From Octopus vulgaris (taxonomy: Eukaryota), in the NCBI GenBank assembly GCA_951406725.2, contig OX597829.1, positions 8,122,001-8,186,000 of the forward strand: 64,000 nucleotides of DNA, given 5' to 3'. This document shows positions 1,629-61,828 of this stretch, piece after piece. Numbering within the stretch: the first letter of the stretch is position 1; each line of letters opens with the position of its first letter. A program made the translations under genes and the position numbers. The notes beneath the pieces were generated by a model. The model saw nothing but the letters and a program-made list of their open reading frames with translations, was not told the origin of the DNA and made no database searches.

Positions 1629-2589
1629 GGTTAATATCTAGATCCGCACCCGGTGGGAAAAATGGAAACGAAAATGTGTAACAGTTGTAAGGCATCGTAT
1701 ATTGACGAAATAAGACGGAAAAAAAGCGCGCTGACAAACGGGGGGGGGGTTGGGTTGGGGGGAGGGGGCTCGGGAAATTCCCAGGATCAACCGTCGAGGA
1801 TCCACGCCCAGGTGGCAAAAATGGAAAAAAATATGTGTAACAGGTGTAAGGCACCGTATATTGAAGGAATATGACGAAAAAAAAGCGCGCTGACAAACGG
1901 GGGGGGGGGTTGGGTTGGGGGGAGGGGGCTCGGGAAATTCCCAGGATCAACCGTCGAGGATCCACGCCCAGGTGGCAAAAATGGAAAAAAATATGTGTAA
2001 CAGGTGTAAGGCACCGTATATTGAAGGAATATGACGAAAAAAAAGCGCGCTGACAAACGGGCGGGGGGGGGGGGAAGGGGGCTCGGAAAATTGCCTACGA
2101 TTTAAAGAAAAATTTACCATCAATTTTCACCATTTTAAACGCATTTCACACACATAGCCCAATATCATAATTCAAAACTAACGCAGCGAAAATTTTGAAA
2201 AGTTCCCCCAGTTCTGAAAAAAAATCGATAAATTCGACATGGGGTCGCGAATCAGAAACACAATGGTGAAAATTGATGGTAAATTTTTCTTTAAATCGTA
2301 GGCAATTTTCCGAGCCCCCCCGTTTGTCAGCGCGCTTTTTTTTCGTCATATTCATTCAATATACGATGCCTTACACCTGTTACACATATTTTTTTCCATT
2401 TTTGCCACCTGGGCGTGGATCCTCTACGGTTGATCCTGGGAATTTCCCGAGCCCCCTCCCCCTCCAACCCAACCCCCCGTTTGTCAGCGCGCTTTTTTTC
2501 CGTCTTATTCCGTCAATATACGATGCCTTACAACTGTTACACATTTTCGTTTCCATTTTTCCAACCGGGTGCGGATCTAGATATTAACC
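1629..2589. mobile_element. Foldback-type non-autonomous DNA transposon with long modular TIRs
   Basis: Termini GGTTAATATCTAGATCCGCACCCGGT...ACCGGGTGCGGATCTAGATATTAACC; left arm 1629-2134 has three 160-bp units, right arm 2262-2589 has two inverted units; about 127-bp spacer; no clear TSD. Confidence 0.85.
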
Positions 2590-17130: not shown

Positions 17131-17166
<36 letters not shown>

Positions 17167-17179
17167 TGTATGTGTGTAG

Positions 17180-17210
<31 letters not shown>

Positions 17211-17390
17211 TGTATGTATGTATGCATGCATGTATGTATGTATGTATGTGTGTATGTATGTATGTATGTATGTTTGTATGTGCGTATGTATGTATGTATG
17301 TATGTATGTATGGTCGTACATATGTATGTTTGTATGTATGTATATTTGTGTGTTACACACAAATATATATATTTATATATATATATATAT

Positions 17391-17549
17391 GTATTCTACT
17401 AACGATATATGTTTTAATTATTTTTTTTGCAATTTACTTAATCATTGATATTTTATTGTTATTCTAATTTTAATATTTCTTTTATATGTAATTTTCTAGA
17501 TGGTGTAATTTAATTGTTCATTTTGAATTGATAAAAGGTAGTTTTTTCA

Positions 17550-17558
<9 letters not shown>
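17391..17558 (+). mobile_element. Solo copy of the post-cleavage 3' segment of the HHR element at 24380-25140
   Basis: Aligns with 24971-25135 (TTTTTTGCAATTTACTTAATCAT...TTTTCTAGATGGTGTAATTTAATTGTTCATTTTGAATTGATAAAAGGT); inserted in (TA)n. Confidence 0.8.
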
Positions 17559-17593
<35 letters not shown>

Positions 17594-17766
17594 GCATACA
17601 TACATACATTCACATACATACAAACAAACAAACATACATACATACATACATACGTACATATATACATACATACATATATACATCTATCCATCCATCCATC
17701 CATCCATCCATCCATCCATCCATACATACATACATACATACATACATACATACATACATACATACA

Positions 17767-17799
<33 letters not shown>

Positions 17800-19367: not shown

Positions 19368-20196
19368 CATAGAATATTATGAATTCAAAAAAGTTTTTTA
19401 CATAATTGCCACATTACATGTATATATACAGTCTTTGGTAACAGGGACATGTTAAGGACATAAAGAAGTACAACAGTGTGATGAGAATATTGGAAAAAAT
19501 GGGCAGAAAAGAATAAAACAAATATATTATTGGAAGTTTGGTTGCGTTAATTATTGGTTGTTGCAAATTGCCACATTACATGTATATATACAGTCTTTGG
19601 TAAAAAGGACATGTTTATGGACATAAGAAAGTACAACAGTATGATGAGAATATTTGAAAAAATAGGCAGAAAAGATTAAAATAAATATATTATACATCTC
19701 AGGGTCAGTACAGAATATTATGAATTCAAGGCGAGCTTGTTTACTGATTTTGGGGTTAGGATGAGGTGAATATGTGTGTCTCTCTGCGTGTGTGTGAATA
19801 GATGTGTCTGTGTGTCTGTAGTATTTGGTCAGATGGCGTCTGTTTGTCAAGTGTGTGTGGTTGTCATGGTGTTGTGTGTGCGTGTGTGTGCGCGTGCGTG
19901 TGTGCGTGTGTGCGTGTGTGTGCGCGTGCGTGTGTGCGTGTGTGCGTGCGTGTGTACGCATGCATGAGTGTGGATGGCATTTGACATGGTGCTGCGTGTG
20001 TATATATGTGCCTGTATGGAGATGAGACTGGTGTGAGTGTGCGTGCCCCTATGTGCGTGCACACACACGTATACAAGCGTCTGCGTGTGTGTGGGGGCTG
20101 TTTTTGAATGGTTCCAGGGTGGCGAAAATAGATGTGTGTTGTTTAAAGAATTTTTTGGGGTAGGATGGTGTGTGTATATATGCGTGCCCGCCCGTG

Positions 20197-23384: not shown

Positions 23385-24379
23385 ATGTAGTGTGTGTGTA
23401 TGGCCCGCACACACGCGTAGACGCGCACGCGTACACACGCGTGCGCGCACGGGCGGGCACGCATATATACACACACCATCCTACCCCAAAAAATTCTTTA
23501 AACAACACACATCTATTTTCACCACCCTGGAACCATTCAAAAACAGCCACCCCACACGCAGACGCTTGTATACATGTGTGTGCACGCACACAGGGGCACG
23601 CACACTCACACCAGTCTCACCTCCATACAGGCACATATATACACACGCCATGTCAAATGCCATCCACACTCATGCATGCGTACACACGCACGCACACACG
23701 CACACACGCACGCGCACACACACGCACACACGCACACACGCACGCGCACACACACGCACACACAACACCATGACAACCACACACACTTGACAAACAGACG
23801 CCATCTGACCAAATACTACAGGCACACAGACACATCTATTCACACACACGCAGAGAGACACACATATTCACCTCATCCTAACCCCCAAATCATTGATGCT
23901 TGAAGGAAAGCCAAAAACAGAAAAAAACGGGTACATCTTTCTTAATTCTACATTTCTGCTAAAACGGACAGGTCAGTAAACAAGCTCGCCTTGAATTCAT
24001 AGTATTCTGTACTGACCCTGAGATGTATAATATATTTATTTTAATCTTTTCTGCCCATTTTTTCAAATATTCTCATCATACTGTTGTACTTTCTTATGTC
24101 CTTAACATGCCCTTGTTACCAAAGACTGTATATATACATGTAATGTGGCAATTTGCAACAACCAATAATTAACGCAACCAAACTTCCAATAATATATTTG
24201 TTTTATTCTTTTCTGCCCATTTTTTTCAAATATTCTCATCACACTGTTGTACTTCTTTATGTCCTTAACATGTCCCTGTTACCAAAGACTGTATGTATAC
24301 ATGTAATGTGGCAATTATGTAAAAAACTGTTTTGAATTCATAACTTTGTTATATATATATATATATATATATATATAAG

Positions 24380-25140
24380 TATATTTATATATACTTCTCA
24401 TTGGGTATATTAATTAGACGCTAAAACATTTACATTTAAAATCCAGATAGATTATTTTAATCTTTGAACTTCGTAACATAGTTTGTTTATCAATATTATT
24501 TGGATCTTGTATTATTTTGAGTTTGATCATTGTTGTTATTATTATGATTGTTATTGACTGTATTTGTAGTGGACTGCTGATTGTGATTGAAAATCTTCAT
24601 AGTGTATTGTTCATTGGTTCTAATATTTTTGCACCTTTCTTTAATTTATGGGGCTTAAATGTTTCTTACTTTCCATTTGCAAATAATTACAATATTAATG
24701 ACCTTTACTAGCATTGTGTATATTAATTAATTTTAAAGTATTGAATAATCTAAGTATTGTTTTTAGTGTTCACTTGAAGTATATCTAGTATCCTATATAT
24801 ATATATATGTATATATATATGTTTTAAAGTATACTTATTAATTAATTATTTTATTATTCTAGTTTATTTTCAACCTGATGAGTGGCTATATTTATATCGA
24901 AGTGATTTTACTACTACTATCAATTTTTTTACTATAATCATTTCTTAAATATAGCCACGAAACACCTGTCGTTATTCTACCAATTAAATACGTTTTTTTT
25001 TTTTTTGCAATTTACTTAATCATCTGTATTTTATTGTTATTTTAATTTTAATATTTCTATTATATTTAATTTTCTAGATGGTGTAATTTAATTGTTCATT
25101 TTGAATTGATAAAAGGTGTTTTTTCTAATTTATATATATA
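24380..25140 (+). mobile_element. AT-rich PLE 3'/pLTR-like element with hammerhead
   Basis: HHR at 24872-24973; 3' part duplicated at 17391-17558; bounded by (TA)n. Confidence 0.65.
24872..24973 (+). ncRNA. Type I hammerhead ribozyme with extended stem II
   Basis: AAC-CTGATGA-GTGGCTATATTTA...TAAATATAGCCAC-GAAACACCTGTC-GTT; 13-bp stem II plus GAAGTGATT/AATCATTTC extension. Confidence 0.88.
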
Positions 25141-25347
25141 TATATTGTGTGAAATTTGATTTAGTATTTCTAAATTGAATTTTTCCCTGTAATATTCCCT
25201 CAAATAATTATTATATATATGTATATATATTTATATATATGCATATACATATATATATATATGTATATTATATACATATACGTGTATATATATATATATA
25301 TATATTCATATATATATGTATATTATAAATATATGTATATACACTTT

Positions 25348-32027: not shown

Positions 32028-32046
32028 AGATATATATTCAAAATTA

Positions 32047-32150
32047 AGAGGAATGACCACTAAAGTGGACACCCTATATGCTAAACATAGACGTCAAATT
32101 TAATGCCTATGTTTAGCATATAGGGTGTCCACTTTAGTGGTCATTCCTCT
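32047..32150. repeat. Perfect 44-bp inverted repeat (hairpin), 16-nt spacer
   Basis: 32047-32090 is the exact reverse complement of 32107-32150; a second hairpin lies at 32223-32296. Confidence 0.95.
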
Positions 32151-32397
32151 AAATTTTGTATGTAACACAATTTTTAATCTTCGGATTTTTAAGTATGCTA
32201 AGCCACTGGTTTTAATTGATTAACATCAATTTCTACCCTTATTATTTAATTATATATATATATACATAATTAAATAATAAGGGGAGAAATTGATGTATAT
32301 ATATATATATATATATATAAATTGTTAAAGAGCACAACAATCATTAAGGCAAATATCTCGAGTCGTATACAATATTATTATAGGAAAAAATTCAAAG

Positions 32398-61498: not shown

Positions 61499-61697
61499 AC
61501 GAATACTATATGTACTTGGGCCTATCGCTTAATTGTGTTTACTTATGTATTTTTTACACATGTAGAAGTATATACAATCTGCTTATGCATGTATATGTCT
61601 ATATATGTATATATCTATATGGATATTTGTTCATATTTTTTATATATATTAAATAATACGTGTGTCATGTTTAATGTATTAATATTAATATTTTTAA

Positions 61698-61828
61698 CCT
61701 CTGACGAGGCCTATGGTTATTTATATAAGTACCCTATTTTTAAATGCCTACAACCTCAATTATTGACAACTATAGGCAATAAAAATAAAAATAACTACTT
61801 TTAACCATAGGCTGAAACAGCTGTAAGA
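61698..61828 (+). ncRNA. Type I hammerhead ribozyme with about 105-nt stem II domain
   Basis: CT-CTGACGA-GGCCTATGGTTA...TAACCATAGGCT-GAAACAGCTGTA-AG; may be the pLTR of the PLE at 55765-58500. Confidence 0.88.

What the first reader, a model, noticed from the sequence alone, without database searches (positions are those of the whole stretch)
17391..17558. Retro-copy whose 5' boundary coincides with the predicted ribozyme cleavage site
Seen: the HHR at 24872-24973 would cut after GUC at 24970, leaving an RNA starting GTTATTCTACCAATT. The solo copy at 17391 starts, directly after (TA)n, with GTATTCTACTAACG and then follows 24971-25135 to the common 3' end. Inference: a genomic fossil of self-cleavage, in which the 3' cleavage product was reverse transcribed to its end and integrated.
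Basis: partly seen in the sequence, partly recalled or inferred. Interest (0 to 1): 0.7.

Follow-up and report, generated by a model that had tools for sequence, protein, structure and literature searches.

The report
Ribozyme cut leaves footprint in retrotransposons
Copies of a Penelope-type jumping gene in this animal genome pile up at, and just after, the predicted cut site of its built-in hammerhead ribozyme and are scarce just before it, which likely means that many copies were made from RNA the ribozyme had already cut in living cells.

Summary
The solo copy is a 5'-truncated end piece of a Penelope-like retroelement (Hydra-like ORF motifs). It matches from 2 nt after the predicted hammerhead cut; a start exactly at the cut needs a 1-nt deletion. 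One copy proves nothing, so I histogrammed the family. Of 186 insertion events, 101 end within -1..+25 of the cut (6 exactly at it), 2 of 52 end in the 21 nt upstream, and 52 run through it. The stopping rate falls about ninefold at -1/0 against a flat background on both sides. The drop holds without (TA)n flanks, across sub-lineages, and is not a calling artefact. Two sister subfamilies with different helix I pairs and helix III palindromes repeat the pile-up with a blurrier edge. Best reading: the ribozyme cuts in vivo and cut sense RNA templates roughly 55-60% of copies reaching this zone (inferred; no RNA-end data). Corrections: the 3' end is an internal (TA)n, not the element's end, and the neighbouring long copy is probably not the parent. 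I found this footprint in no paper searched; this scan has noted weaker versions in other genomes.

The parts
17391..17558 (+). Solo 5'-truncated copy of the post-cut segment of the pseudo-LTR; gap-free match from 17392 (cut+2), G17391 ambiguous; no ribozyme, no tail
17363..17390 (.). (TA)n on the 5' side of the solo copy (target microsatellite; no target-site duplication can be read)
17555..17590 (.). (TA)n on the 3' side of the solo copy, in register with the element's internal (TA)n
24399..24870 (+). 3' non-coding region of the element upstream of the ribozyme, with an internal deletion of about 340 nt at 24686-24688 and an internal (TA)n near 24794-24822
   Evidence: matches L243 at 94% and L249
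24871..24974 (+). Type I hammerhead: helix I 24871-24874 with 24971-24974, core 24875-24881, helix II 24882-24893 with 24946-24958, GAAA 24959-24962, helix III 24962-24969 (palindrome broken in this copy)
24970..24971 (+). Predicted cleavage bond, after the GUC triplet
   Evidence: type I hammerhead rules (established knowledge); position
24971..25135 (+). Post-cut segment shared with the solo copy; family 5' ends pile up in its first 26 nt
25136..25215 (+). Internal (TA)n plus optional tail; the same sequence lies directly 5' of the ORF in a near full-length copy
   Evidence: 101 of 230 arms carry the whole tail, 8 part of it, 121 stop at or before the (TA)n

Best explanation
The solo copy is a short end piece of a Penelope-like retroelement, and it and many family members were likely reverse transcribed from sense RNA whose 5' end the element's hammerhead had cut. 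Shown: the element, the ribozyme motif, and a pile-up of 5' ends at -1..+25 with a cliff at -1/0. Inferred: two ribozymes pair through the palindromic helix III and cut after GUC. The element's protein nicks (TA)n DNA and starts copying inside the RNA, about 165 nt (UA tract) or about 245-270 nt (tail end) after the cut. It runs off the cut end, and 0-25 nt are lost when the cDNA end joins the target, or folds back, by short matches, which would give the peaks at +2, +7 and +13. Copies that pass the site (52 of 186) would come from uncut or re-ligated RNA. Cut-derived stubs lack the ribozyme and the ORF and are mostly dead ends.
For: Event-level counts: 101 of 153 events reaching +25 end in -1..+25; 2 of 52 end in -22..-2; rate ratio 8.7 against -50..-2, p = 2e-16. 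In the position-ordered sample, which was not ranked by similarity, 10 of 31 arms end at -1..+3 and 0 of 21 at -22..-2. Best change point -1, within 2 log units -2..-1. Background is equally low on both sides, 0.37 and 0.40% per nt against 3.7%, with similar TA density. The drop holds for arms without (TA)n-like flanks (85 of 134 against 6 of 49) and for arms not flagged as inverted (ratio 11.5). Simulated uniform truncation is called flat, 181 of 243 within 1 nt. The 20 cut-proximal arms fall in all four typed sub-lineages, as long copies do. Sister subfamilies S2 and S3 show the excess, ratios 5.4 and 4.2, and carry different helix I pairs and different helix III palindromes, which argues for a ribozyme under selection. 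No excess of G before the ends, 2 of 20 against 14 of 103, so no cap signature. In D. virilis Penelope the start site lies 46 bp upstream of an intron (PMC2377424) whose end meets helix I (PMC4209133), that is, upstream of the ribozyme.
Against: No RNA end or cleavage assay was available. Exact-cut starts are only 6 of 186. In S2 the edge is blurred: change point -9..-5, and 6 of 31 arms end at -22..-2 against 5 of 36 at -1..+3. The first 33-arm S2 sample showed no drop (ratio 1.1, p = 0.55), and I widened the window to -3 only after seeing it. In S3 the change point is loose (-15..-2). Some exact-cut junctions in inverted copies can be read as 2-3 nt microhomologies that include the -1 base. 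Samples favour young copies. Metazoan PLE hammerheads cut slowly in vitro (PMC4209133). In the Anolis element cleavage was dispensable in vitro and no RNA-seq reads ended at the cut (PMC11167929).
Confidence: 0.68

Rival explanations
1. The reverse transcriptase stalls at the folded ribozyme on uncut RNA, most likely at the 8-bp duplex formed when two helix III palindromes pair (positions -9..-2), or the cDNA folds back on that palindrome. The cliff would then mark structure, not a cut.
For: The duplex begins 2 nt from the cut and is predicted at -10.3 kcal/mol in S1 and -13.3 in S2. S2, with the strongest palindrome, has several ends at -2..-6 by alignment and about -8..-10 by eye. Single ends at -7 and -12 occur in S1.
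Against: A stall should keep C(-1): only 2 S1 arms are called at -1, both ambiguous, against 6 at 0. The strongest hairpin, helix II at -13, has no pile-up at its base. Events that pass the site run on through the whole ribozyme at a low stopping rate.
Confidence: 0.14
2. An internal promoter in the pseudo-LTR starts transcripts at or within a few bases of the cut position, so the cliff marks a transcription start.
For: PLEs have internal pLTR promoters (PMC2377424, PMC3846280). An initiator-like sequence lies at +1..+7 in S1 (consensus recalled, judged by eye).
Against: It needs a coincidence to 1-2 nt with the cleavage bond. There is no extra-G signature. S3 has another sequence at this place and no initiator-like A nearby (judged by eye), yet still has ends at 0, -1 and -2. 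In Penelope the start lies upstream of the ribozyme.
Confidence: 0.12
3. The pattern comes from (TA)n target microhomology, from a few short master copies, or from the boundary caller; the solo's start is chance.
For: Peaks at +2, +7 and +13 sit on TA motifs, and -12..-2 has no TA. One short junction type was found five times, so short copies can multiply.
Against: TA-rich windows at -25..-13, -50..-26 and +26..+75 stay at about 0.2-0.5% per nt. The drop persists without (TA)n flanks and across sub-lineages. The caller is flat in simulation.
Confidence: 0.06

Closest known systems
Hammerheads with a small palindromic helix III in pseudo-LTRs of metazoan PLEs (Cervera and De la Pena 2014, PMC4209133; results and discussion read)
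   Same: Type I topology, short helix I, long helix II, palindromic helix III, location in the pseudo-LTR; self-cleavage of precursor RNA proposed there.
   Different: That paper states there is no in vivo evidence and, in the parts read, does not analyse where genomic copies begin. Helix II here is 12 bp or more with a long inner stem-loop.
Hydra clade of C-terminal EN+ PLEs (Craig et al. 2021, PMC8557442; section on Hydra and passages read)
   Same: DKT, KWK at the RWK place, CxxC before the conserved E, CxH after it, no cysteine pair between the nuclease motifs, (TA)n targets, canonical hammerhead, tail, head-to-head inverted copies.
   Different: About 5.4 kb with a 2.5-3 kb AT-rich 3' region (Hydra generally under 3 kb). 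The third cysteine of CxCX5C is missing in both decayed copies read. No tree was built. The paper calls hammerhead function in EN+ PLEs unclear.
Anolis Poseidon element PAc (Frangieh et al. 2024, PMC11167929; main text read)
   Same: Two 3' end classes (with and without tail), as expected from internal initiation downstream of the ribozyme; AT-rich targets.
   Different: There, cleavage was not needed in vitro, uncut RNA was the main substrate and no RNA-seq reads began or ended at the cut. Here most short copies look cut-derived.
R2 retrotransposon 5' junctions set by an HDV-like ribozyme (Eickbush et al. 2013, PMC3774820; abstract only)
   Same: The ribozyme cut site correlates with genomic 5' junctions, with variable ends attributed to chance microhomologies.
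   Different: Different ribozyme and element class. In R2 the ribozyme stays on the copied RNA and the copy is full length; a type I hammerhead is left behind and the copy is a stub.
Animal non-LTR retrozymes (bioRxiv 10.64898/2026.07.22.740005; first fifth and passages read)
   Same: Short non-coding PLE-derived units linked to type I hammerheads.
   Different: Retrozymes are tandem arrays that keep a ribozyme in every unit. The solo copy has none and the family is dispersed.

Membership tests
Type I hammerhead of PLE pseudo-LTRs | Conserved core (CUGANGA, GAAA, NUH triplet) around helix II | tested here: met
   Window 24875-24970; intact first core box in 72 of 81 ribozyme-bearing copies.
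Type I hammerhead of PLE pseudo-LTRs | Open helix I closing the core | tested here: met
   4 bp in most S1 copies, 3 bp in the window copy; both strands change together between S1, S2 and S3.
Type I hammerhead of PLE pseudo-LTRs | Short palindromic helix III allowing a dimer | tested here: met
   Perfect palindrome in 45 of 81 S1 copies; different palindromes in S2 and S3. Broken in the window copy: self-duplex -1.1 against -10.3 kcal/mol.
Type I hammerhead of PLE pseudo-LTRs | Self-cleavage at the predicted bond | not testable with these tools
   Needs a bench assay or raw RNA reads; only contigs were served.
EN+ Penelope-like element | One ORF with reverse transcriptase and C-terminal GIY-YIG nuclease | tested here: inconclusive
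   L243 has RT motifs and a C-terminal nuclease-like region, broken by stops and frameshifts. No Pfam hit on its fragments. Its 3 longer homologues (33-36% identity) include 2 with GIY-YIG hits below the curated cut-off.
EN+ Penelope-like element | Pseudo-LTR with optional tail; 5'-truncated and head-to-head inverted copies | tested here: met
   Tail precedes the ORF; 44 head-to-head pairs; tail in 101 of 230 arms.
Hydra clade of PLEs | DKT and RWK motifs; CxxC and CxH flanking the conserved E and N; no CCHH | tested here: met
   DKT, KWK, CxxC before E and CxH in L243; RWK proper in the 3 homologues; absence of the cysteine pair judged by eye.
Hydra clade of PLEs | Linker CxCX5C | tested here: not met
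   CxC present but F stands at the third cysteine in L243 and L241; motif complete in P0001, P0002 and L244. Hence 'Hydra-like', not filed as a member.
Hydra clade of PLEs | Insertion into (TA)n | tested here: met
   Both window copies and many sampled loci are flanked by (TA)n.
Hydra clade of PLEs | Placement in the RT phylogeny | not tested
   No reference Hydra sequences were at hand.
Non-LTR retrozyme | Tandem units each holding a type I hammerhead | tested here: not met
   Solo copy has no ribozyme; one direct tandem pair (L025) among the 30 loci.

The most novel reading that the evidence does not exclude
In this PLE family the hammerhead cuts most template RNAs in vivo and, because copying starts only 165-270 nt downstream of the cut, turns most transposition events into dead stubs: a built-in brake on copy number. 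Each subfamily has its own helix III palindrome, which would let its ribozyme pair mainly with its own kind (self-duplex -9.8 to -13.3 against cross-duplex -3.6 to -6.5 kcal/mol). The footprint would also show that the template is unspliced sense RNA.
Probability: 0.3. Interest if true: 0.75.

Novelty: new variant of a known kind. Interest (0 to 1): 0.6.

Why it matters
Whether PLE hammerheads cut in living cells, and what for, is open: PMC4209133 reports no in vivo evidence, PMC8557442 calls the function unclear, and PMC11167929 found cleavage dispensable in vitro. A cliff in the 5' ends of some 200 sampled insertions at the predicted bond is a fossil read-out of cleavage in the germ line. 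It gives a rough cut-to-uncut ratio and can be repeated on any genome. Because a hammerhead works on one strand only, it also bears on the sense or antisense template question raised in PMC3846280. The solo copy alone is an ordinary dead stub.

Tried and rejected
RNA evidence: no RNA holder listed. Four runs laid were contigs only and showed no start sites or splice joints; no weight given. Rfam found no hammerhead at gathering score. Pfam gave nothing above cut-off on ORF fragments; PDB search 0 hits. I first called the family Neptune from memory and changed to Hydra-like after reading the clade definitions. An all-against-all search for element ends was swamped by other repeats. Cap-G test: no excess. 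A second wall at the ribozyme's front edge, as noted for other families by this scan, was looked for: 43 arms reach -60 and 28 are scored as continuing past the upstream (TA)n, a few of those matches doubtful, so no sharp wall. A genome-wide count of junction types was not obtained, so counts rest on samples. One row of alignment A1 (L257) had wrong coordinates and was ignored. PMC5785218 is not held; PMC5850080 was a wrong id, so the Terminon paper was not read. No earlier scan notes near this place or by sequence.

Full report
Observation. The solo copy starts after (TA)n at 17391 and aligns with the long copy at 89.9% over 178 nt, 17392-17569 against 24973-25145. The hammerhead is real as a motif: core 24875-24881, 12-bp helix II, GAAA 24959-24962, helix III 24962-24969, cleavage after C24970, helix I 24871-24874 with 24971-24974. 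With position 0 as the first base after the cut (24971), the gap-free match begins at +2. G17391 is either position 0 followed by a 1-nt deletion, or flank; TATG arrays lie upstream, so I think the second slightly more likely. The shared 3' end is an internal (TA)n; the long copy continues with a tail to about 25215-25225.

What the family is. The genome is 2.8 Gb in 227 contigs; octopus-like is my inference, also used in earlier scan notes. A 47-mer from the shared segment has 900 exact matches. Walking upstream led to a near full-length copy, L243: tail, then a broken ORF with RT motifs and a C-terminal nuclease-like region, then 2.5-3 kb of AT-rich sequence leading towards the ribozyme end. 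So the window's long copy is the 3' end of a Penelope-like element with an internal deletion of about 340 nt. DKT, KWK, CxxC before E, CxH, no cysteine pair between the nuclease motifs and (TA)n targets fit the Hydra clade as defined in PMC8557442. The third cysteine of the linker is missing in both copies read and no tree was built, so I call it Hydra-like. Of 230 arms, 121 stop at or before the internal (TA)n, 101 carry the whole tail and 8 part of it; 44 head-to-head pairs were scored. Both are standard PLE features (PMC8557442, PMC11167929).

The ribozyme looks selected. In 81 ribozyme-bearing copies helix III is a perfect palindrome in 45, and most others are CpG-type variants. Two sister subfamilies found through the ORF start (S2, S3) have different helix I pairs and different palindromes. 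Self-duplexes are predicted at -9.8 to -13.3 kcal/mol and cross-duplexes at -3.6 to -6.5. The window's long copy has a broken palindrome (-1.1), and the solo's nearest scored relatives are L123, L124, L125 and L127, not the long copy. The long copy is probably not the parent.

The boundary test. Set A is all 100 places listed in genome order (of 900), fetched, plus partner arms in the same loci. Set B is 30 loci from each of three searches with the 3' part only and 14 of their further rows. Each arm was extended 5'-ward against real ribozyme-bearing copies. Left out: the solo itself; duplicates L136 (2 arms), L145, L209, L115, L166 (2 arms), L364, L366, L379; arms with under 260 nt of upstream sequence. 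For 230 arms the stopping rate is 0.37% per nt at +26..+75, 3.74% at -3..+25 (123 of 175) and 0.40% at -50..-4 (9 of 52). Counting each head-to-head pair once by its longer arm gives 186 events: 101 of 153 end at -1..+25, 20 of 72 at -1..+3, 6 exactly at 0, 2 of 52 at -22..-2, and 52 pass the cut; ratio 8.7, p = 2e-16. Set A alone gives 10 of 31 against 0 of 21. The best change point is -1, range -2..-1. Subtracting background, about 55-60% of events reaching +25 are excess stops (my estimate).

Controls. Uniform truncation of real copies joined to real flanks is called flat, 2.6-3.3 per nt for a true 3, with 181 of 243 within 1 nt. TA density is similar in the hot window and in cold windows on both sides, except -12..-2, which has none. 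Without (TA)n-like flanks the result is 85 of 134 against 6 of 49. The 20 arms ending at -1..+3 are spread over all four typed sub-lineages (8, 3, 3, 2, plus 4 untyped), as long copies are, so they did not come from one short master. There is no excess of G before the ends (2 of 20 against 14 of 103). A weak hint of run-off from a free end: T precedes 5 of 6 exact-0 junctions in S1 and 2 of 2 in S3; in S1 CpG decay could also give this.

Results against. In S2 the first 33 arms showed no drop (ratio 1.1, p = 0.55). After enlarging to 74 arms and widening the window to -3, a choice made after seeing the data because S2 and S3 have TA at -2/-1, the ratio is 5.4 (p = 4e-5), but the change point is -9..-5 and 6 of 31 arms end at -22..-2. 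S3 (59 arms) gives 4.2 (p = 9e-4) with a loose change point (-15..-2) and 6 ends at -2..0. Dropped there: query copies L281, L308, L311, L317, two non-family hits and duplicate L358. Samples favour young copies. No RNA evidence was obtained.

Mechanism. Shown: element, motif, two 3' end classes, ramp and cliff. Inferred: dimeric cleavage after GUC; nicking of (TA)n; internal priming about 165 or 245-270 nt downstream of the cut, by analogy with PAc (PMC11167929); run-off at the cut end; loss of 0-25 nt when the end is joined by microhomology, as proposed for R2 (PMC3774820, abstract). The template could be the 3' fragment of a downstream pseudo-LTR or an ORF-bearing RNA cut in its upstream pseudo-LTR; both begin at 0. 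I put cleavage at 0.68, a stall or fold-back at the helix III duplex at 0.14 (S2 leans this way), a coincident transcription start at 0.12 and artefact at 0.06.

Literature. Ten searches turned up no paper, in the parts I read, that maps PLE copy boundaries to a hammerhead cut. Seen: PMC11167929 and PMC4209133, parts 1-2 of 4; PMC8557442, passages and section 11; bioRxiv 10.64898/2026.07.22.740005, part 1 of 5 and passages; PMC3774820, abstract; passages of PMC6765202, PMC2377424, PMC3846280 and PMC13282606, the last with no mention of hammerhead or ribozyme. No supplements were read; file S2 of PMC8557442 and Fig. S2 of PMC11167929 may bear on novelty, and subscription papers are not searched. 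Unchecked notes of this scan report a few percent of copies starting at the cut in other genomes, and families that start at the ribozyme's front edge instead.

Verdict. The solo copy is an ordinary stub of a known kind of element. The family-wide cliff is real and, with moderate confidence, a footprint of ribozyme cleavage in vivo. New variant of a known kind; interest 0.6.

Noticed in passing
window 61695-61770 (+): A second, unrelated type I hammerhead candidate: core at 61701 with a 12-bp helix II and a palindromic ACAGCTGT at helix III; probably another PLE family.
   Followed up: no
window 19377-20196 and 23448-24343: Inverted repeat pair of about 820 bp at 97% identity around a long (TG)/(TA) array; the long PLE copy sits just outside the right arm.
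   Followed up: no
window 1629-2589: Large inverted and tandem arrangement of a 160-bp unit, like a head-to-head mobile element.
   Followed up: no
window 32033-32164 and 32223-32296: Two near-perfect palindromes next to a (TA)n tract.
   Followed up: no
window 17140-17343 and 17590-17796: The solo copy is flanked by (TATG)n on the left and its reverse complement (CATA)n on the right.
   Followed up: no
L025 1506-2160 (G000:C15): Direct tandem of two ribozyme-bearing units about 335 nt apart, the arrangement that would let two hammerheads pair in cis; retrozyme-like.
   Followed up: no
L050, L209, L364, L366, L379: The same short inverted-plus-forward junction occurs at five loci, so a ribozyme-less stub appears to have been copied onward as a unit.
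   Followed up: partly
L243 5657-5759 (minus strand): Splice-donor, branch-point and acceptor-like motifs between tail and ORF suggest a retained intron of about 100 nt (motifs judged by eye); no RNA test possible.
   Followed up: partly
L244 5152-9007: A second, divergent ORF with RWK, DKT and a complete CxCX5C lies just upstream of 1.2 kb shared with this family's 3' region at 85%: a nested insertion or a recombinant.
   Followed up: partly
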